IMG/VR virus record: IMGVR_UViG_3300049846_001717
Span: 1 to 64,000 of that record
Origin: a virus
Reading direction: 5' to 3' (one strand)
Length of the DNA stretch: 64,000 nt
Shown here piece after piece: positions 10,936 to 40,499 of the stretch. A program made the translations under genes and the position numbers. The notes beneath the pieces were generated by a model. That model saw nothing but the letters and a program-made list of their open reading frames with translations. It made no database searches and was not told where the DNA came from. The stretch's first letter is position 1. Each line of letters opens with the position of its first letter.

Positions 10936-11783
10936 GTCATCTGCTTCGTTGGGGTACTAGGTGAAGTAGTCACTTCATCAATTATTGTTGGAGATTCAAC
11001 AGTGGTGGTATCTTCTGGTCGTTTTGGACTCGATGGTAATTCTGGTTTTGGCGGTGATGGCACCGGCGTTGGAACTGGCGCCGGTGTTGGCACGGTAGGT
11101 GATTCCGGTGTAGAATTTTCAGCAGTCAAGTTAACAACAGTCGTGATAGTGGTGACTCCTTCGGGCAGTGCATCGATCATATTGATGTCAAACGTCAATT
11201 GCATCGTTGCAGTGGCACCGGGGAACAATGTTACATCCGATGGTACATAGTTGACACCCGGAATTTTGTTCACCGATGCCAACACCGTTATGGTATCTGA
11301 TGTATTGGTCAATTCAATCGTTGCCGGCAATACAGCGGTTTTTGATCCTTTGGTATATTGACGAACGATGGTGGAATTATTCACCGACACAAGGGAATCA
11401 AGATAGATCGTCGTGTCCGCCTCTGGCTCATTGACAATGTCAGTTGCCGATTGTGAATCGATAGCGTCCGTGATCGACTGTACCGACACGTATTGGAACG
11501 GTACGCCATCAACTCCCAACAACAATACGTTACCTGGCTCGCTCACTTTCTCAGGATCAGTACCAGCGGCCAGCGCGGTTTCAATTTCCAACGCTCGGTC
11601 TGCCGGAATGGTCAGATATTCCTTATTGTTGGTTAGTGTACCATCGGGTAGAATAAGCCACCCACTATACTTGGGCACAGCTTTATTCGCATTCTTTGCA
11701 AGAATGAATTGAATCGCTTCGTTTTGTTCTACCGTTCGTGCATCGGGTGCATCAGATGCTGGCGTGCCTGGTGGGAGAATCAT
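10932..11783 (-). CDS. hypothetical protein with Pro/Thr-rich C-terminus
   Basis: PTVPTPAPVPTPVPSPP linker. Confidence 0.55.
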   Translation of the reverse strand: MILPPGTPASDAPDARTVEQNEAIQFILAKNANKAVPKYSGWLILPDGTLTNNKEYLTIPADRALEIETALAAGTDPEKVSEPGNVLLLGVDGVPFQYVSVQSITDAIDSQSATDIVNEPEADTTIYLDSLVSVNNSTIVRQYTKGSKTAVLPATIELTNTSDTITVLASVNKIPGVNYVPSDVTLFPGATATMQLTFDINMIDALPEGVTTITTVVNLTAENSTPESPTVPTPAPVPTPVPSPPKPELPSSPKRPEDTTTVESPTIIDEVTTSPSTPTKQMT

Positions 11784-22315: not shown

Positions 22316-22594
22316 TCATTTACTATTGTTTATCCGACTGATTATTTCTTTGAATTTCGTAAATTCTTCATCGGTCAGTGACGGCAGTTTCATCTTGACC
22401 GTCAACTTGATCTCACGATCAGATTTGGTGGGCGGCATTGGTTCTGGCGTAGCCGATCCCTCTCGACGTTGTTCTTTCGGTGGAAACGGCGTCTTCTGCG
22501 GCATCTCAACGGCTTCGATATTGTCGAATGAACTCAGGACTGTATCCCACAAACTATCAATCACTTCGCCAAGGTCACGGCGTTTATTCGTCAT
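22316..22594 (-). CDS. hypothetical protein
   Basis: ORF track. Confidence 0.55.
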   Translation of the reverse strand: MTNKRRDLGEVIDSLWDTVLSSFDNIEAVEMPQKTPFPPKEQRREGSATPEPMPPTKSDREIKLTVKMKLPSLTDEEFTKFKEIISRINNSK

Positions 22595-23291
22595 CGGTAG
22601 TGTTCTCCACAGTCAATGACTCCACGAATTCCTGCTTCATCGGGTCGCGTTCGATGGTGGCGCTCAAGTGGTCCGCCCAATGAATGACGTACGGCAGATT
22701 CGTGTGCATCGGAAACTTACCGTGATTCATCAGGTACGCCTTGTTGGCGTCATCATACAAGCCGTCTGAAAGCTTGATGGCGAGAGTTTCCTTGTGTGTT
22801 AAGGTGATGCCGTACTGTTGGAGAATGAACAGCGCGCCATCGGTCACCTTCATGAACGGCAGGCGTTCATTGTGTTTGTACATCGATCCCTGATTCTTTC
22901 GATGCCAGTCCGATTCTTCAATCAGATAGTAGGGTTCGCCGTTAGGCATCCCGAGCTTCCACAGGTCGTGATGTAATGCGGCCATGACCAATTCGGCCAT
23001 TGTATAGTCCAACCACCCACCCATCTTCCGCAGGGTCTTGGTATGTTCCAAGGCGGCGTCATGTACGTGCAAAACGTGCTCCAAATAGCCGCCGGGGAAC
23101 GCGTTGTGATAATGGGATCGACTGGAGGCCGGAGCCGTCAACAGACGATCGCCATAGTCTTCATACATCTTTGTAAGCTTGGCCAGTCGATCGGCGTCCT
23201 TTGCGAACGCATCGGCCATCAATTTGAAAAACCGTTCCTTTTGTTCTGCTATGAGTTCGGCTTCGGTTTTTTGCACTGTCTCGGTCATCAT
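22584..23291 (-). CDS. HD-domain phosphohydrolase (YhaM/Cbf1-like)
   Basis: APAS..HNAFPGGYLEHVL, LHHDLWK, HWADH. Confidence 0.82.
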   Translation of the reverse strand: MMTETVQKTEAELIAEQKERFFKLMADAFAKDADRLAKLTKMYEDYGDRLLTAPASSRSHYHNAFPGGYLEHVLHVHDAALEHTKTLRKMGGWLDYTMAELVMAALHHDLWKLGMPNGEPYYLIEESDWHRKNQGSMYKHNERLPFMKVTDGALFILQQYGITLTHKETLAIKLSDGLYDDANKAYLMNHGKFPMHTNLPYVIHWADHLSATIERDPMKQEFVESLTVENTTDDE

Positions 23292-23321
23292 ATCCTCAAT
23301 GTGAAAAATGCCTATAGATGA

Positions 23322-23350
23322 AAGCTATCTCATCTATAGGCATTTGGCAA
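23322..23350 (-). promoter_or_regulatory. sigma70-type promoter overlapped by 16-bp inverted repeat
   Basis: TTGCCA-17-TAGCTT. Confidence 0.55.
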
Positions 23351-27632: not shown

Positions 27633-28062
27633 GTGTAACCTCGGGTGTGGGCCAGACATACGGGAGGTCGTCTGGCATGTTTTTGAAATACTTGGAGTAG
27701 TGCTTGAAATCCTTTCGGAGCAGATTGGACTTGTGTGAACGATGTAGCGGCTTTCGGGGGCCGATCCACGGCGGGAAGCCAGTGAAATTCCGAGACACTC
27801 GAGCTTGGAAATACGGCAACAGGCTGTCGTTGTAGCCGCGGCGCCGCCATTCCAAACAGATATACATGCCGTACAGTGCCAACGCACCTTCGTAACCGGT
27901 CCACATCTTGACGGCAGGGTGGTTGCGCCAGCCCTTGGTCTGCGTCTCGTTCAGTAGGATTTGTAGGATCTGCTTGGCTTCAACACGTTGCTTGCCAAGC
28001 CGGCGGTAGTCGAGGACACGGGCCGTGCGCTCGAAATCGGGATATGGAAGGAATGTCTGCAT
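27610..28062 (-). CDS. pyrimidine-dimer DNA glycosylase/EndoV-like protein
   Basis: MQTFLPY..LDYRRLGKQRVEAKQI..HPAVKMW. Confidence 0.85.
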   Translation of the reverse strand: MQTFLPYPDFERTARVLDYRRLGKQRVEAKQILQILLNETQTKGWRNHPAVKMWTGYEGALALYGMYICLEWRRRGYNDSLLPYFQARVSRNFTGFPPWIGPRKPLHRSHKSNLLRKDFKHYSKYFKNMPDDLPYVWPTPEVTHGTTESI

Positions 28063-28068
28063 ACCCGT

Positions 28069-28097
28069 AAACTAACCTTTCGGCACGCGCCTGGCAA
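28069..28097 (-). promoter_or_regulatory. sigma70-type promoter
   Basis: TTGCCA-17-TAGTTT. Confidence 0.45.
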
Positions 28098-28136
28098 CCC
28101 TCCGGCACGCGCCAGGCTTGCGTCTGGCCGTCTAAA

Positions 28137-28210
28137 AACCCCCGGTGGGACTCGAACCCACATCTCCTGTTACGGTGGCCCGTTTAGGAAACGGGACCGA
28201 TACGGGGGGC
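28137..28210 (-). tRNA. non-canonical tRNA-Arg(CCT), no 5' D arm
   Basis: Acceptor, CCCGT-TTCCTAA-ACGGG, GTGGG-TTCGAGT-CCCAC; 7-nt linker replaces D arm. Confidence 0.7.
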
Positions 28211-28216
28211 AACTGT

Positions 28217-28429
28217 TTATCGAGGGTCGGTGTTGTTTTTGAACGCGTGGATTGCGATCTCGGCCTCCCACAACTTGTTTTCTACGTGTTCATCGTATGG
28301 ATATCCGTTTTGCTTCTTCGATTCATCCAACCAATATCGATACGAGTCGATTAGAACTCGTAGGATAGCTTTGGACTGAGGCGATTTAACCGACGCCTCT
28401 ATTGCGTCCAGTTCGTCATAACTGATCAT
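28217..28429 (-). CDS. hypothetical protein
   Basis: ORF track. Confidence 0.5.
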   Translation of the reverse strand: MISYDELDAIEASVKSPQSKAILRVLIDSYRYWLDESKKQNGYPYDEHVENKLWEAEIAIHAFKNNTDPR

Positions 28430-28659
28430 GTGATACGTGCCTCAGACTTGCCGTTGACGGTGATGATTTCGAGCGTGCCCTTGAACTTGATACTACCCTT
28501 CGTGTGAGGGTTATCCGGCGTTTCCTTCGTAGAAAACCCGACCTGTGAATCTACATGCCACACGTAATGAGTTTGGCCCTTGTGTTTGATGACCCACGGA
28601 GGAATGCCCTACGGATCAGTGATATGAGCCTTGTTGAAATGAAAGACGATGGTATCCAT
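28426..28659 (-). CDS. 77-codon phage protein with in-frame TAG (28609-28611)
   Basis: MDTIVFHFNKAHITDP*GIPPWVIKHKGQTHYVWHVDSQVGFSTKETPDNPHTKGSIKFKG...; fills gap exactly, ATGA overlap downstream. Confidence 0.65.
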
Positions 28660-28660
28660 G

Positions 28661-28840
28661 TTACTTAGTGTCCAATTTATTAGCCAATGTTTTTAACTTT
28701 CTAAGAGCAGATTTATACTTCGTCACAGCAAGTTTCCATTCAGGGGATGAATATGTTCCACGTCGATAGGCATTTCCCCATTCATCAAGAATATTTTCCA
28801 TTTCATTCATTATAACATCATTTTTGTTAAGATTTTTCAT
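28661..28840 (-). CDS. hypothetical protein
   Basis: ORF, AT-rich segment. Confidence 0.5.
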   Translation of the reverse strand: MKNLNKNDVIMNEMENILDEWGNAYRRGTYSSPEWKLAVTKYKSALRKLKTLANKLDTK

Positions 28841-29061
28841 TACCACTCCTCGTATGAGGTAACATCCAATGTTTCATTGGTTAATGCATCATGAATTTTA
28901 ACAATGGTTCCCAAGCCAGTAGGCGTAAAACTATAAGTAAATCTACCACCAGCGGCACCGGTGCGGCGCGATATCTTCTTTTCTTTAATTATCGTATCCA
29001 AAAATTCTACCCACTTTTCAATTTTTGGAGCGGCATCAAGTGGTATATTAAATAGAGTCAT
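28840..29061 (-). CDS. hypothetical protein
   Basis: GGRFTYSFTPTGLG..LDVTSYEEW. Confidence 0.6.
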   Translation of the reverse strand: MTLFNIPLDAAPKIEKWVEFLDTIIKEKKISRRTGAAGGRFTYSFTPTGLGTIVKIHDALTNETLDVTSYEEW

Positions 29062-29417
29062 TTCACAAGTGATAGATGTTTAAGTGCTTTTGCCTCTTCT
29101 CGGGTCAATGGACCGATACCAAGTGCAGTCATAATAGGGTTGCCATCAAAGTGAGGAGGCATAACATGGCCAGAATCAATGATGAGACTGTGTGGCCACC
29201 CATTGGCCTTCGCCAGTTTGACCAAGGCACGTATATCGGTGACAGAGCCTTCTAGAGTGACCTTCGTACCCAATCCACCCTTCTGATAGAGCCTGGCACG
29301 CCTGGGATTGAGTTGAACACACTCCAAATACGAATTAAGGAAAGCGTGACCCGCTTGAGCGGCCAGCTTTCCTGTCGGCATGTGTAAATCTTTACGAACT
29401 ATGGCATAGAGCTTCAT
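29058..29417 (-). CDS. peptidyl-tRNA hydrolase, Pth2 family
   Basis: VRKDLHM..GKLAAQAGHA, KVTL, IIDSG, TALGIGP. Confidence 0.88.
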   Translation of the reverse strand: MKLYAIVRKDLHMPTGKLAAQAGHAFLNSYLECVQLNPRRARLYQKGGLGTKVTLEGSVTDIRALVKLAKANGWPHSLIIDSGHVMPPHFDGNPIMTALGIGPLTREEAKALKHLSLVK

Positions 29418-29530
29418 GTTGACTTCATCTTCCTAGAACATATTATTTGGTCTTTTTGTTATGGGTTTTAGCGTGTTTTAACGCTTGTTTCATGGACTTC
29501 ATGAGTTCTTTAAATAGTTTCTTTTTCATA

Positions 29531-29602
29531 AGCTCGTGGCGAGGCTTGAACTCGCTTCTTTCGTTTTAGAGACGAAGGCACCGGCCGATATACCACACGA
29601 GC
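29531..29602 (-). tRNA. amber suppressor tRNA (CTA)
   Basis: Full cloverleaf, TTCGT-CTCTAAA-ACGAA, U73. Confidence 0.85.
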
Positions 29603-29618
29603 GTTTTCAAAATAATAG

Positions 29619-29691
29619 TGCTCACGGAAAGGATCGAACTTTCTGTCTCTACTATGTCAAAGTAGCGTGTTAGCCGGTACACCACGCGAGC
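29619..29691 (-). tRNA. tRNA-Val(GAC)
   Basis: Cloverleaf. Confidence 0.88.
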
Positions 29692-29771
29692 GATCGAGAG
29701 TTCACGAAATTTAACGTTCTTGGTACTCACAACTTTCTTTACGAACGTATAATCTGTGCACAGATTATAAG

Positions 29772-29858
29772 AGGATCGGACAGGATTCGAACCTGTGATT
29801 AAGTCTTTCGACTATATGGTTTTGCAGACCATTGCGTTGGCCACTTCGCTACCGATCC
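29772..29858 (-). tRNA. tRNA-Cys(GCA) with long variable arm
   Basis: U73; V arm AGTC-GAAA-GACT. Confidence 0.85.
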
Positions 29859-29863
29859 AAAAG

Positions 29864-29956
29864 AGCGATTTCCTGAGTCGAACAGGTCTTCGTACCTGGA
29901 GGGGTACGCGTGCTGATGGATCATCTTGCGACAACCCGCCGTTACACTAAAACCGC
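29864..29956 (-). tRNA. atypical tRNA-Gly-like (8-nt anticodon loop, hairpin in D loop)
   Basis: GCG/CGC acceptor, U73; loop CCCTCCAG. Confidence 0.6.
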
Positions 29957-29960
29957 AAAT

Positions 29961-30010
29961 TGGCGCAAAGGGTGGAATTGTACATCCACTACAGAATTGA
30001 ATCCCCTTGC
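29961..30010 (-). ncRNA. tRNA minihelix-like RNA with encoded CCA
   Basis: GCAAGGG/CCTTTGC + GTGGA/TCCAC + G-CCA. Confidence 0.55.
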
Positions 30011-30017
30011 ATATTAC

Positions 30018-30069
30018 TGGCGGCAGGCGAAGGATCTACCCCTTCATACATAGTCAATGCTAGCCCGCC
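30018..30069 (-). ncRNA. tRNA minihelix-like RNA with encoded CCA
   Basis: GGCGGGC/GCCTGCC + GAAGG-7nt-CCTTC + G-CCA. Confidence 0.6.
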
Positions 30070-30096
30070 AAACTGATTTTCACGAGGTTGTTACAA

Positions 30097-30170
30097 TAGC
30101 GGAGGTTGGATTTGAACCAACGTCCTTCCGGTTATGAGCCGGACGCGCTGCCGGGCTGCGCCACTCCGCG
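30097..30170 (-). tRNA. initiator tRNA-fMet(CAT)
   Basis: C1:U72 mismatch, CGCGG 5' end. Confidence 0.88.
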
Positions 30171-30219
30171 TCAATGTTACTTTAACTGTCGAACTTTGAT
30201 CTCATACGTCCCTGTGGGG

Positions 30220-30555
30220 GTTGGATGCCAATAGCCAGGATTCTGTATAATGACAATCATTTGACTCAGTCCTCTTGCGAGGACCGCCCCACGTTTATAG
30301 TGAGGTGCTCTCAACCCGATACCTTTGGTCAGACGGACCCGTATCTGCTCGAGATTGCAGCGCCTATCCTGTCGCCCGTTTCATCCACCGCGTTATCGTG
30401 GCTCGTTTCTGTTGCCGTGACTCCATTTCGGAAAATACGAATTTCTCCATAAGATTCCTTATAGGGGAGCAGCTTCCACTCTAGGCTGTCTTGTGCTGTC
30501 CTGAACTTCCTCAACGTACAATCTAGTGTACGCCGCGATTGTCTAGGCATCCAAC
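30220..30555 (-). ncRNA. rnpB: RNase P RNA
   Basis: P1 GTTGGATGCC/GGCATCCAAC, P2 GACAATC/GATTGTC, CR-I GAGGAAGTTCAGGA pairs with CR-V ACAGAATCCTGGCT (P4), CAACAGAAA, TGAAAC. Confidence 0.88.
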
Positions 30556-30916: not shown

Positions 30917-31791
30917 GAACGGGCTGAGAATACACCCGTTCTAGTCATCCTTTTGAACCATTATCCATCCCACATCCCTGTGAGACGTTCGATTCGTTTC
31001 CACGGTGACTCTCACCGTCGATGACCACAGCGACCTTTTTTAAAGTGTGGCGTTTCACTTGTCGTCTAGCACTTCTCGACACTTCTCCTACCGTCTGCCT
31101 TGCGAGCAGTACACAGTCGCTAAACCGTTACGTGCGGGTCTATATCGAAGACTCTCTGGCTTGGGGCCATCGAATCCGCCGTCTTCCTTGCGGGACGGCA
31201 TTACGCTGTTTATCATGCTTAGACCGAGGAAGTCTTTCCGTTTTTGGATTCGTATGATGGATTTGAACCACCATTAAATTGTTAATAGCAATGTGCCTTA
31301 CCGTTAGGCAAATACGACTTTGAACGAAGTGCTTCCTCAGTTGTTCCAATGACTTTTGATCATCAGAATGCAACACTCCGCGGCTACCGTTCCCCCTGAA
31401 CAGGGTACTACGTCATACGTCACGAACTCGGGCTGGCCTCTTAATAGCGGACAGCTCAGTTCATTAGTATTCCTGTGAAGCTCTTGGTTTCAAGGCCTCG
31501 AACCTCACAAGTATCTGTTACCTATCTGTTCTCGCGTGTGGGTTGAAATGGAGCCCGGCACCACCCGTCAGACTTCATGAACTTGCTTTCCTTCCCGAAG
31601 GAAGGGGCGTCAGCCCACGTTTTTCCCATTTCCACGCTTCGAACCTATCACCGAACCTTCGCCCGATGCTACTGGCTTCGAACCAGTAAAGGCCAGACTT
31701 GTTTGGATGAACCGTCTTGCGACGGCCCGGGTTACAAAGATAGCCCGGTTTATAGGCCTTACGACCTACTGTTCTTACGGAGTCCAAACAC
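30917..31791 (-). ncRNA. GOLLD-like large structured RNA (~875 nt)
   Basis: No credible ORF, many GNRA/UUCG hairpins, GTGTTGCATTC..TCAAAAG..GAACAAC, 3' hairpin GAACGGG-TGTATTCTCAG-CCCGTTC, embedded tRNA; family recalled from memory. Confidence 0.7.
31245..31318 (-). tRNA. degenerate tRNA-Asn(ATT) embedded in GOLLD-like RNA
   Basis: TCGTAT/ATACGA, D arm, ATTG-CTATTAA-CAAT, TTCAAAT loop, CCA. Confidence 0.6.
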
Positions 31792-33732: not shown

Positions 33733-33739
33733 ATATCAG

Positions 33740-33813
33740 TGCCGGCCACGAGACTCGAACTCGTAAGATCCTGTTTTTGAGACAGGAATGTCTGCCAATT
33801 GCATCAGACCGGC
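33740..33813 (-). tRNA. tRNA-Leu(CAA), short V arm
   Basis: Cloverleaf. Confidence 0.85.
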
Positions 33814-36527: not shown

Positions 36528-37200
36528 TTATTGTAATAGTTCGAGTTGACCTCGGAGTACGTCTTTCAACCGGACTTTCTTATCCGATCGATGATCGGTG
36601 ACGATACCGTCCTGTTCCCGATACGTTCGAATCTTATCGCCTCGCATTCCCGAACCTACAAGCTGTTTGCGGTCACCATCGGCTTGCCGTTTCGATTGTT
36701 CGGCCATATACGTGGCTACTCGATGTTCCAACAGTTCACGAGCAGTACGACGATTCTGATGTTGACTCTTCTCTGCGGCTTTCGCTTCGATCTTTGTTGG
36801 TTCGTGCCGCATGATGACACATGATTCAGTCTTGTTACGATGTTGACCGCCGGGGCCGGAATCCTTAGTGGTAAACGTCGTAATGTCTGATTCCTTCAAT
36901 CGCCATGACGCAGGTTCTTTGATCTCAAAGACGGCTACGGTGACGGTTGATGTGTGAACCCGACCACGACGTTCGGTGGGCGGAATACGTTGCCATCGAT
37001 GACCACCTGATTCATTCATCAATAATCGGAGCTTTGAATCGGTGCCTTCGATGATCAGGTCAAAGACTACCTCGGTTCTCCGAAATCACGGACGCGCCGA
37101 GACGAGAGGCAAACGACAGATAGATGTTGGCTTGGTTGGACACGAGCAGTTTTGCATCAGTGCCACCTTCACCAGGTCGGATTTCTACGAGGTATTTCAT
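36528..37200 (-). CDS. minimal class-1 peptide release factor (PxT, GGQ), expressed by +1 frameshift at CTT-TGA-C (~223 aa)
   Basis: Frame 0 MKYLVEIRPGEGGTDAKL...GSL*; +1 frame DLIIEG..ESGGHRWQRIPPTERRGRVHTS..GPGGQHRNKTES. Confidence 0.88.
37059..37073 (-). promoter_or_regulatory. RF2-type programmed +1 frameshift site
   Basis: GAGGT-AGT-CTT-TGA-C (internal SD, 3-nt spacer, shifty stop). Confidence 0.85.
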
Positions 37201-37222
37201 CGAAATTCTCATTAAAGGAAAG

Positions 37223-37299
37223 TGCTCCTAGTGGGACTCGAACCCACACTTGACGGCTTCTCGAACCGTTGACTCTGCCTGAGATTGGTCTACAGGAGC
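37223..37299 (-). tRNA. tRNA-Leu(GAG), short V arm
   Basis: Cloverleaf. Confidence 0.82.
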
Positions 37300-37720: not shown

Positions 37721-37794
37721 TGCACTCGGTGGGACTCGAACCCACAAGATTTCGCTTCTGAGACGAAAATGTCTGCCAATTGCATCACGAGTGC
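37721..37794 (-). tRNA. tRNA-Leu(CAG), short V arm
   Basis: Cloverleaf. Confidence 0.85.
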
Positions 37795-40355: not shown

Positions 40356-40429
40356 TGGACACCACGGGAATCGAACCCGTCACATCGTCATTGCGAATGA
40401 CAATCGCCACCCTTGGTACATTGGCGCCC
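40356..40429 (-). tRNA. tRNA-Ala(CGC)
   Basis: G3:U70. Confidence 0.82.
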
Positions 40430-40499
40430 GAGCCCGCAACCGGCGATGTCCCGGCGAGTTGACCTCCCTTCAACTCTTTCATGCGGCGGATTATTTCAA

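What the first reader, a model, noticed from the sequence alone, without database searches (positions are those of the whole stretch)
28426..29602. Amber-suppressor tRNA beside a gene with an in-frame TAG in an otherwise code-11 genome
Seen: intact tRNA(CUA) at 29531-29602; about 0.9 kb downstream a 77-codon gene that exactly fills its gap has TAG at codon 17 (..HITDP*GIPPWVIK..). The intervening segment is visibly AT-richer and none of its ORFs ends in TAG, whereas elsewhere TAG is a normal stop (e.g. gp25, GT2, AAA). The tRNA acceptor (G1-C72, C2-G71, U73) is not Gln-like. Inference: an island imported from a TAG-recoded phage, or suppressor-gated expression.
Basis: partly seen in the sequence, partly recalled or inferred. 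Interest (0 to 1): 0.72.

Follow-up and report, generated by a model that had tools for sequence, protein, structure and literature searches.

The report
Phage genes gated by own amber-suppressor tRNA
A large uncultured freshwater phage that otherwise uses the normal genetic code carries its own UAG-reading tRNA, and beside it a small conserved gene with a UAG stop inside its conserved core; the UAG has been kept through long evolution, so the protein is very probably made in full only when that tRNA overrides the stop.

Summary
tRNA(CUA) lies at 29531-29602(-) (Rfam tRNA, 48.7 bits). A 77-codon gene at 28426-28659(-) has TAG at codon 17.

The TAG is not an error or a recent mutation:
- It is present in the probable source run at depth 55.
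- It is present in a second study's contigs.
- It is present in a ~93%-identical riverine variant (9 synonymous and 2 non-synonymous codon changes).
- It is at the same codon in a distant relative, L001, where pS is 0.82 and pN is 0.19.

It splits the conserved domain, so only read-through gives a whole protein.

Family-wide, I examined 109 distinct phage loci:
- 47 of 62 loci with full flanks have a same-strand tRNA(CUA) within 1.7 kb.
- 73 of 104 genes carry an early UAG (codons 2-6, mostly TAG-ATT). This lineage has the UAG at codon 17 instead.

The adjacent PTH2-like gene has a probable second gate (ATG-TTC-TAG leader), as its relatives do.

The genome is otherwise code 11: 16 of 142 genes end in TAG, and I found no other in-frame TAG. 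The "island from a recoded phage" reading is not supported; "suppressor-gated expression" is.

This scan has found the same module many times on other DNA. I found no published description. The inserted amino acid, the protein's function and the purpose of the gate remain unknown.

The parts
29531..29602 (-). Amber-suppressor-type tRNA(CUA). 72 nt, anticodon loop CUCUAAA, G1-C72, C2-G71, U73, 4-nt variable loop, no encoded CCA.
   Evidence: ARAGORN. Rfam RF00005 at 48.7 bits, full length.
29443..29529 (-). Lys-rich 28-codon ORF. It starts 1 nt after the tRNA and ends TAA-T-ATG at the PTH2 leader. Whether it is translated is unknown.
   Evidence: Read from the sequence.
29058..29441 (-). PTH2-like peptidyl-tRNA hydrolase gene. 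The domain begins at the ATG at 29415-29417. An in-frame leader, ATG(29439-29441) TTC TAG(29433-29435) GAA GAT GAA GTC AAC, precedes it and is a probable second amber gate.
   Evidence: Pfam PF01981, E 1.6e-17, covering the whole domain. Leader read. Relatives have the same layout: L147 (MR*IDDPVMYAI), L148 (MR*IDHSNQPVAYAI, with no ATG after the TAG) and L146 (TAG at codon 8). A tRNA(CUA) is adjacent in L145, L147 and L148.
28840..29061 (-). 73-aa ORF of unknown function in the AT-richer segment.
   Evidence: phrog_26220, E 2.4e-9, function unknown.
28661..28846 (-). 61-aa ORF of unknown function in the AT-richer segment. Its TAA stop lies 1 nt before the ATG of the gated gene.
   Evidence: No family match.
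28426..28659 (-). Amber-gated 77-codon gene of a conserved phage family of small all-beta proteins (FHFNK...PxWVIKxKGxTHYVxH...GFSTKETPDNPHTKGSIKFKG). The UAG is codon 17 (28609-28611).
   Evidence: AlphaFold2 model with pLDDT 92.
28609..28611 (-). The in-frame TAG (CTA on the + strand). It lies in a loop between invariant N9/K10 and W22.
   Evidence: Present unchanged in runs X1, X2 and X3 and in the X4 variant, and at the same codon in L001.

Best explanation
This is a local, gene-specific 'amber gate' in a phage that otherwise uses the standard code.

**Proposed mechanism**
- The phage's tRNA(CUA) is made from the tRNA array and charged by a host synthetase. The amino acid is unknown.
- It reads the UAG at codon 17 of the 77-codon gene about 0.9 kb downstream on the same strand.
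- It probably also reads the UAG at codon 3 of the leader of the PTH2-like gene that directly follows the tRNA.
- Without read-through the ribosome stops after 16 residues. Invariant residues lie on both sides of the UAG, so no functional product is possible. The full protein therefore appears only when, and in proportion as, the suppressor beats release factor 1 at UAG.

**Proposed purpose (inferred)**
The gate ties production of a small translation-related protein, and of the tRNA hydrolase, to suppressor activity. This could be a feed-forward link or a sensor, and resembles in logic the in-frame UGA of prfB.

**What is shown**
- The tRNA gene is present and regular.
- The UAG is present in independent data.
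- Both halves of the frame are under purifying selection.
- The family is linked to tRNA(CUA) and is enriched for UAG.

**What is inferred**
- That the tRNA is expressed, charged and the agent of read-through.
- What the protein does.
- Why it is gated.
For: 1. **The TAG is real and old.**
- It is identical in the source-like run X1 (depth 55) and in contigs of a second study (X2, X3).
- It is kept in a ~93% variant from a third study (X4), which has 9 synonymous and 2 non-synonymous codon changes on both sides of the TAG.
- It is kept at the same codon in L001, which is 70% identical in amino acids and 69% in nucleotides. There pS is 0.82 and pN is 0.19; for codons 1-16 alone the values are 0.81 and 0.10.
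2. **The TAG lies inside the conserved domain.** F6, H7 and N9 are upstream; W22, K25, G28, Y32 and H35 are downstream. A restart at the next start codon (GTG, codon 33) would lose these residues.
3. **The family is linked to the tRNA.** Of 62 distinct loci with at least 1.7 kb on both sides, 47 have a tRNA(CUA) within 1.7 kb. All 78 such tRNAs found are on the gene's strand, upstream in 45 and downstream in 33. In 25 loci it is the only tRNA nearby. No other protein family co-occurs in more than 20 of 110 loci.
4. **Most family members carry an early UAG.** In 89 of 104 members the nearest upstream in-frame stop is TAG, against 30 of 142 genes in this genome. In 73 the layout is M-x(0-4)-TAG at codons 2-6, with no ATG before the domain; ATT follows the TAG in 58. 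So a UAG is selected in this family at different positions.
5. **The genome is code 11.** Stops are TAA 69, TGA 57 and TAG 16. I found no other convincing in-frame TAG.
6. **The PTH2-like relatives have the same M-x-TAG leader beside a tRNA(CUA)**.
Against: - Nothing here is experimental. Expression, charging and suppression by this tRNA are unknown, and no RNA run holding the stretch was listed.
- The two closest database proteins, P0001 (82% identical to the window protein) and P0002 (71%), show Q at this position, and P0003 shows E. I could not see their DNA, so the gate may not be universal in the subclade, or the Q may be a code-15 translation of TAG.
- Thirty family members show no gate, although 22 of them still have the tRNA.
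- Genes ending in TAG show no back-up stops: the median extension is 17.5 codons, against 14 after TAA and 20 after TGA. A strong suppressor should be costly, so suppression may be weak or depend on context.
- The window's PTH2-like gene has an in-frame ATG right after the leader, which could bypass its gate.
- Only 98 kb of the genome was available.
Confidence: 0.74

Rival explanations
1. Tolerated drift, or incipient recoding. Because the phage has a suppressor, a CAG-to-TAG change in a non-critical loop became harmless and was fixed by chance. The TAG has no regulatory role, and its nearness to the tRNA reflects only old synteny.
For: - The position is a variable loop with a one-residue insertion.
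- Close relatives show Q or E there; TAG, CAG and GAG are single-base neighbours.
- Borges et al. propose that in-frame stops accumulate after a phage gains a suppressor.
- Only one or two TAGs occur in 98 kb.
Against: - The only clear in-frame TAG among about 142 genes sits in the one family that is specifically linked to tRNA(CUA).
- 73 of 104 other members carry a UAG at a different place.
- The TAG has survived saturation of synonymous sites.
Confidence: 0.15
2. Pseudogene or artefact. The TAG is an assembly or sequencing error, or a recent nonsense mutation in a dying gene.
For: The gene has a single TAG in a genome where TAG otherwise terminates genes.
Against: - It is present at depth 55 in the source-like run.
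- It is present in contigs of two further studies, one a 93% variant with a 9:2 ratio of synonymous to non-synonymous codon changes.
- It is at the same codon in L001, with pN 0.19 against pS 0.82 and no frameshifts or further stops.
Confidence: 0.02
3. Island from a TAG-recoded (code 15) phage. The AT-richer segment and the gated gene were imported from a phage in which TAG means Gln, together with its tRNA.
For: - GC dips to 34-41% at 28600-29100.
- The PTH2-like gene and two small ORFs are absent at this place in L001.
- Q occupies the TAG position in P0001 and P0002.
Against: - The gated gene itself lies outside the GC dip and is syntenic with L001.
- The island ORFs have no internal TAG.
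- The 109 related loci show no specific gain of coding density when TAG is read as sense, compared with TGA or TAA.
- The tRNA's acceptor stem is not Gln-like.
Confidence: 0.04
4. The tRNA(CUA) serves another purpose, such as read-through extension of other genes, harm to host termination, or a decoy for a host tRNA nuclease. The gated gene would then be read through by some other means, or be made as fragments.
For: - 22 ungated family members still keep the tRNA.
- The phage carries many other tRNAs, a tmRNA and an RF1-type factor.
- The XacN1 authors found no targets for that phage's CUA tRNAs.
Against: This does not explain why UAG, and not UAA or UGA, is the stop found in 89 of 104 leaders, nor why the tRNA is always on the same strand within about 2 kb.
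Confidence: 0.05

Closest known systems
Stop-codon-recoded phages with phage suppressor tRNAs (code 15, TAG read as Gln; crAss-like, Lak and others; Borges et al., bioRxiv 10.1101/2021.08.26.457843; metaproteomic proof in PMC9523058)
   Same: A phage-encoded tRNA(CUA) in a standard-code host allows translation of phage genes that contain in-frame TAG. Those authors also proposed that this controls the timing of expression.
   Different: - There, many genes are recoded (structural and lysis genes), TAG is depleted as a stop, and Gln is inferred.
- Here, the genome is code 11, with 16 of 142 genes ending in TAG.
- Only one or two genes, next to the tRNA, carry a UAG.
- The gated genes are a small unknown protein and a tRNA hydrolase, not late genes.
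- The tRNA does not look like tRNA-Gln.
Orphan suppressor tRNAs of standard-code jumbo phages (e.g. two CUA tRNAs of Xanthomonas phage XacN1, PMC5852040)
   Same: A large phage with a big tRNA set, a CUA tRNA, a peptidyl-tRNA hydrolase and standard code.
   Different: The XacN1 authors read through the 18 annotated amber stops and found no targets. Here the target is an unannotated or split small gene beside the tRNA. In the cultured Rhizobium phage RHph_I1_18 the family gene is not annotated at all.
prfB (RF2) autoregulation through an in-frame UGA
   Same: An in-frame stop codon early in a translation-related gene makes its synthesis depend on how that stop is decoded.
   Different: prfB uses a +1 frameshift and senses its own product. 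Here the stop is read by a tRNA, and no evidence links the gated proteins to UAG decoding. This is a resemblance in logic only.
Laboratory amber suppressors and suppressor-tRNA gene circuits (supE/supF type; synthetic feed-forward gate, PMC7969014)
   Same: A tRNA(CUA) gates a gene that carries UAG. The A36-A37-A38 anticodon loop is typical of UAG readers.
   Different: This is a natural, conserved arrangement in wild phages, and its acceptor stems are diverse.

Membership tests
Amber suppressor tRNA (canonical elongator tRNA with anticodon CUA) | Cloverleaf that scores as a tRNA | tested here: met
   RF00005 at 48.7 bits against a gathering score of 29, model positions 1-71. ARAGORN cloverleaf with a 7-bp acceptor stem and a 5-bp anticodon stem.
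Amber suppressor tRNA (canonical elongator tRNA with anticodon CUA) | Anticodon CUA in a 7-nt loop, with U33 and a purine at position 37 | tested here: met
   The loop is C-U-CUA-A-A. The same loop occurs in 64 of 82 related tRNAs.
Amber suppressor tRNA (canonical elongator tRNA with anticodon CUA) | Is expressed, aminoacylated and inserts an amino acid at UAG | not testable with these tools
   No RNA run was listed. The amino acid is unknown.
Stop-codon-recoded (code 15) phage | In-frame TAG in many genes; coding density rises when TAG is read as sense | tested here: not met
   One clear and one probable in-frame TAG among about 142 genes. Six-frame ORF cover is 0.84 under code 11. It rises to 0.94 with TAG as sense, no more than with TGA (0.97) or TAA (0.95) as sense.
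Stop-codon-recoded (code 15) phage | TAG not used as a terminator | tested here: not met
   16 of 142 genes end in TAG, among them gp25, GT2 and AAA with complete domains.
tRNA-Pyl (ARAGORN's label) | Pyl-type structure: 3-nt variable loop, 6-bp anticodon stem, small D-loop without GG | tested here: not met
   The tRNA has a 5-bp anticodon stem, a 4-nt variable loop and an 8-nt D-loop containing GG. The label follows from the anticodon alone. The defining features listed here are recalled from the literature.
tRNA-Pyl (ARAGORN's label) | pylS and pylBCD genes present | not tested
   I did not search for them. None was noticed in the 98 kb.
Amber-gated small-protein / tRNA(CUA) module of large phages (seen repeatedly in this scan; no paper found) | Member of the FHFNK...GFSTKETPDNPHTKGSIKFKG small-protein family | tested here: met
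   884 homologues, best E 6e-37, 58-82% identity among the best hits.
Amber-gated small-protein / tRNA(CUA) module of large phages (seen repeatedly in this scan; no paper found) | Same-strand tRNA(CUA) within about 2 kb | tested here: met
   The tRNA lies 872 nt upstream on the same strand. 47 of 62 fully flanked loci have a tRNA(CUA) within 1.7 kb.
Amber-gated small-protein / tRNA(CUA) module of large phages (seen repeatedly in this scan; no paper found) | In-frame UAG at codons 2-6 of a short leader, usually TAG-ATT | tested here: not met
   The window gene and L001 have no leader gate. Their UAG is codon 17, inside the domain. This is a positional variant.
PTH2 peptidyl-tRNA hydrolase (Pfam PF01981), for the neighbouring gene | Full-length match above Pfam's cut-off | tested here: met
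   64.2 bits against a cut-off of 23; residues 1-117 match profile positions 1-114 of 115.
PTH2 peptidyl-tRNA hydrolase (Pfam PF01981), for the neighbouring gene | Hydrolyses peptidyl-tRNA | not testable with these tools
   No assay was possible.

The most novel reading that the evidence does not exclude
Large standard-code phages carry a self-contained UAG switch. A dedicated suppressor tRNA is the key. A small protein with no match among solved structures, and a PTH2-like hydrolase, are locked by UAG.

The phage also encodes an RF1-type factor and a tmRNA. The module may therefore act as a rheostat that measures the balance between read-through and termination at UAG, and sets the level of factors that deal with the consequences. 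This would give the 'orphan' suppressor tRNAs of jumbo phages their natural targets.

The codon-17 gate in this window is the clearest case that UAG must be decoded as an amino acid, because it splits the conserved domain.
Probability: 0.35. Interest if true: 0.85.

Novelty: new variant of a known kind. Interest (0 to 1): 0.72.

Why it matters
- **Targets for orphan suppressor tRNAs.** Suppressor tRNAs in phages that use the standard code have had no known targets; the XacN1 authors searched for them and found none (PMC5852040). A conserved gene pair locked by UAG beside the tRNA names such targets.
- **A natural one-codon switch.** It points to a translational switch that needs no change of the whole genetic code.
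- **Annotation.** Gene callers split or miss these genes. The family gene is unannotated in the cultured phage RHph_I1_18.
- **The strongest sequence-level argument.** In this window the UAG lies inside the conserved core, so re-initiation after a mini-ORF cannot explain it.
- **Possible tools.** If confirmed, the module would supply natural, context-tuned suppressor tRNA and gate pairs.
- **Testable.** Rhizobium phage RHph_I1_18 is a cultured carrier in which the switch can be examined.

Tried and rejected
I therefore could not see the DNA of P0001 and P0002, which show Q at the TAG position, and cannot say whether their codon is CAG or TAG.
It did not hold two homologues I tried.
- **Searches that found nothing.**
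  - blastn of the region against GenBank phages: no match.
  - Pfam, PHROGs and NCBIfam: no family for the 77-aa protein.
  - PDB sequence profile: no hit. Foldseek against the PDB: best E 1.6. VIA-align wide: best Z 3.4.
  - BFVD: only uncharacterised phage proteins, best E 5.5e-4 with TM 0.67, and TM up to 0.78 at E 1.2e-3.
  - No RNA run holding the stretch was listed.
  - No promoter or terminator pattern on the - strand within 27900-30300.
- **Other candidate early gates, rejected.**
  - 'ATG AGA TAG' before gene 22584-23291 lies in the loop of a terminator hairpin, and a good Shine-Dalgarno sequence with an ATG follows it.
  - The TAG at 37228 upstream of the RF1-type gene is just the preceding stop.
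- **Origin of the suppressor.** No donor was found among the phage's own tRNAs: the best identity is 71%, to much longer tRNAs, which is not informative.
- **PTH2 in the family loci.** tblastn with the window's PTH2-like protein found nothing in the 144 family loci at E 1e-3.
- **Upstream TAGs in some relatives.** In family members such as L005 and L081, an in-frame TAG lies just before the ribosome-binding site. The frame upstream of it is full of stops, so I counted these members as ungated.
- **Prokaryote genomes.** The scan gave only 3 hits, all probably mis-binned phage contigs, so it gave no clue to the host.
Full report
**1. The observation**

The window is the first 64 kb of a single 98,055-base phage contig with 52% GC. 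It carries 47 tRNA genes and a tmRNA on the minus strand.

- The tRNA(CUA) at 29531-29602(-) is a regular 72-nt cloverleaf with anticodon loop CUCUAAA, G1-C72, C2-G71 and U73.
- It matches Rfam's tRNA model over its full length at 48.7 bits, against a gathering score of 29.
- ARAGORN's label 'tRNA-Pyl' follows from the anticodon alone.
- The gene at 28426-28659(-) reads MDTIVFHFNKAHITDP*GIPPWVIKHKGQTHY..., with TAG as codon 17 (28609-28611).
- GC dips to 34-41% between about 28600 and 29100.
- TAG is an ordinary terminator elsewhere. A crude gene call gives 142 genes with stops TAA 69, TGA 57 and TAG 16. The TAG-ended genes gp25, GT2 and AAA have complete Pfam domains.

**2. The TAG is neither an error nor a recent lesion**

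Public contigs were laid on the region.

- X1, a freshwater-sediment run that is probably the source, holds the stretch without a difference at word depth 55.
- X2 and X3, two runs of another study, hold identical contigs across the TAG.
- X4, a riverine metagenome from a third study, holds a variant about 93% identical. It has 9 synonymous and 2 non-synonymous codon changes, five of the synonymous ones upstream of the TAG. The flanking codons change (CCG to CCA, GGC to AAC) and the TAG is unchanged.

The closest IMG/VR relative is L001, on a 105-kb contig that is syntenic with the window. Its gene is 70% identical in amino acids and 69% in nucleotides, and it has TAG at exactly the same codon: HNADP*NIPPW. 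Between the two genes synonymous sites are saturated (pS 0.82) while pN is 0.19. For the 16 codons upstream of the TAG alone, pS is 0.81 and pN is 0.10. Both halves of the frame have therefore been kept as protein for a long time with the TAG in place.

**3. The gene family, and why this window is informative**

The read-through product has 884 homologues in the protein collection. They are full-length and cover both sides of the TAG. Invariant residues lie on both sides of it: F6, H7 and N9 before, and W22, K25, G28, Y32, H35, F42, T44-P48 and T53 after. The next possible start codon after the TAG is codon 33, so no restart could give a complete domain.

At the TAG column the closest proteins show Q (P0001, P0002) or E (P0003). 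Most others lack this residue, because their loop is one residue shorter. TAG, CAG and GAG are single-base neighbours.

The AlphaFold2 model is confident (pLDDT 92) and all-beta, and the TAG falls in a loop. I found:
- no Pfam, PHROG or NCBIfam family;
- no PDB sequence match;
- no convincing fold match (Foldseek E above 1, VIA-align Z at most 3.4);
- similar predicted folds only in uncharacterised phage proteins.

**4. The family is tied to tRNA(CUA) and to UAG**

I collected 144 loci from IMG/VR and JGI metagenomes, holding 109 distinct family genes.

*Link to the tRNA*
- Of 62 loci with at least 1.7 kb on both sides, 47 have a tRNA(CUA) within 1.7 kb.
- All 78 such tRNAs found are on the gene's strand, upstream in 45 and downstream in 33.
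- In 25 loci it is the only tRNA within 2 kb.
- CUA is the commonest anticodon in these loci: 84, against 37 for the next, GCA.
- No other protein family accompanies the gene in more than 20 of 110 loci.

*Enrichment for UAG.* Notes from earlier parts of this scan prompted me to look at the N-terminal leaders, which my first screen had skipped.
- In 89 of 104 resolvable genes the nearest upstream in-frame stop is TAG. In this genome's genes the figure is 30 of 142.
- In 73 of them the layout is Met, 0-4 codons, TAG at codons 2-6 (mostly codon 3), then the domain with no ATG in between. ATT follows the TAG in 58.
- Thirty members show no gate.
- The window and L001 have the codon-17 gate instead.

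*Phylogeny.* On a quick tree the window sits in a well-supported clade of nine (SH-aLRT 99) that has no early gates.

*Interpretation.* A UAG is thus selected in this family at different positions. In leader gates one could argue for a mini-ORF followed by re-initiation at AUU. Here the UAG splits the conserved core, so only decoding as an amino acid yields the protein.

*Genetic code of the relatives.* The loci are not code-15 phages. Reading TAG as sense raises ORF cover no more than reading TGA or TAA as sense does.

**5. A probable second gate in the window**

The gene that directly follows the tRNA is a full-length PTH2-type peptidyl-tRNA hydrolase (PF01981, E 1.6e-17). In frame with its ATG (29415-29417) lies a leader: ATG(29439-29441) TTC TAG(29433-29435) GAA GAT GAA GTC AAC. 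Relatives at 48-50% identity show similar leaders:
- L147 has MR*IDDPVMYAI, with a tRNA(CUA) next to the gene.
- L148 has MR*IDHSNQPVAYAI, with no ATG after the TAG and a tRNA(CUA) next to the gene.
- L146 has a TAG at codon 8.

In the window the ATG after the leader could bypass the gate, so I rate this one at about even odds. Both gated genes are coupled to a preceding small ORF by TAA-N-ATG.

In the cultured jumbo phages Atu_ph07 and Phosso, a PTH2-like gene and a fused form of the small-protein domain are also neighbours. They have no TAG, and no tRNA(CUA) lies within the 5 kb of Atu_ph07 that I scanned. This hints that the two proteins work together.

**6. The rest of the genome, and the cost of a suppressor**

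- I found no other convincing in-frame TAG in the 98 kb. Two look-alikes were rejected.
- Genes that end in TAG have no nearer back-up stops than others: the median extension is 17.5 codons, against 14 after TAA and 20 after TGA. Suppression is therefore probably weak or dependent on context.
- The phage also encodes an RF1-type factor. It has the Pfam RF-1 domain and the end of the PCRF domain, and a PPT tripeptide is visible in the translation.
- There is also a tmRNA. The phage thus carries both a reader and a terminator of UAG.

**7. Which amino acid**

This is unknown.
- The acceptor stem (G1-C72, C2-G71, U73) is not Gln-like by E. coli rules, which I recalled and did not test.
- Among 82 distinct related tRNA(CUA) genes, position 73 is A in 68, U in 8 and G in 5, and the 1:72 pair is G:C in 72. 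The anticodon loop is nearly invariant.
- The tRNAs of the window and L001 share 62% identity, mainly in the anticodon and T arms.
- The inserted residue may differ between lineages.

**8. Interpretation**

The best reading is a local amber gate. The 77-aa protein, and probably the PTH2-like enzyme, are made in full only when the phage's own tRNA(CUA) reads their UAG. The purpose is inferred. The gate may couple these translation-related proteins to suppressor activity, either as a feed-forward link or as a sensor of read-through against RF1. This is similar in logic to the in-frame UGA of prfB.

The rivals are set out in the Rival explanations section: drift under a suppressor, a pseudogene or artefact, import from a recoded phage, and another role for the tRNA. 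Drift is the only one with real weight.

**9. Literature and novelty**

- Borges et al. describe genome-wide recoding and 'code-change modules' in code-15 and code-4 phages.
- The XacN1 paper reports two CUA tRNAs whose targets could not be found.
- The Atu_ph07 paper reports an opal suppressor.
- Three full-text searches found no description of a gene-specific UAG gate beside a suppressor tRNA in standard-code phages. The library is incomplete.
- This scan has found the same module many times on other DNA. What this window adds is the internal position of the gate, support from independent samples, and conservation of the TAG through synonymous saturation.
- A cultured carrier exists. In Rhizobium phage RHph_I1_18 the family gene (MSEFM-TAG-NESCREVIFHFNK...) is unannotated and directly precedes the annotated tRNA(cta).

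Noticed in passing
window 37721-37794 and 33739-33813 (-): Two tRNAs with Leu anticodons (CAG, 74 nt; CAA, 75 nt) have a short variable loop instead of the long arm of bacterial tRNA-Leu.
   Followed up: no
window 29771-29858 (-); related loci L003, L004, L008, L009, L012, L017 and others: The tRNA(GCA) near the suppressor is 88 nt long and has a long variable arm. In related loci a tRNA(GCA) is the commonest neighbour of tRNA(CUA): 37 GCA against 84 CUA tRNAs in 109 loci.
   Followed up: partly
window 31245-31318 and 40356-40451 (-): There is a tRNA with the unusual anticodon AUU. There is also a 96-nt tRNA-like gene that ARAGORN reads with a four-base anticodon.
   Followed up: no
window 29443-29529 (-): A Lys-rich 28-codon ORF (MKKKLFKELMKSMKQALKHAKTHNKKTK) starts one base after the tRNA(CUA). 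It ends TAA-T-ATG at the PTH2 leader. The 77-aa gene is coupled in the same way (TAA-C-ATG) to the 61-aa ORF.
   Followed up: no
window 36528-37227 (-): An RF1-type release factor gene lies in two frames. It has the Pfam RF-1 domain, the end of the PCRF domain and a PPT tripeptide. The phage therefore encodes both a UAG-reading tRNA and a UAG/UAA-type terminator. An earlier follow-up in this scan described it.
   Followed up: partly
L149 (Rhizobium phage RHph_I1_18, MN988519.1, about 10990-11230): In a cultured T4-like phage the family gene is not annotated. It has TAG at codon 6 (or codon 2 from the second ATG) and directly precedes the annotated tRNA-Pyl(cta).
   Followed up: partly
L150 (Atu_ph07, 197705-198920) and L154 (Phosso, 176617-177832): The gene order is PTH2-like gene, one hypothetical gene, then the small-protein domain fused to an N-terminal extension of about 95 aa. 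There is no TAG. No tRNA(CUA) lies within the 5 kb of Atu_ph07 that I scanned; Phosso was not scanned for tRNAs. Atu_ph07 has an opal suppressor elsewhere (PMC6102473).
   Followed up: partly
window 23296-23345 (-): A strong terminator-like hairpin followed by a run of T lies just upstream of gene 22584-23291. Its loop holds an 'ATG AGA TAG' that mimics an early amber gate.
   Followed up: yes
L151 (PLXT01000115.1, filed as a Methanobacterium MAG) and L152 (filed as a Bifidobacterium MAG): Contigs carrying the phage module (family gene plus tRNA(CUA)) are filed inside prokaryote MAGs. They are probably mis-binned phage contigs.
   Followed up: no
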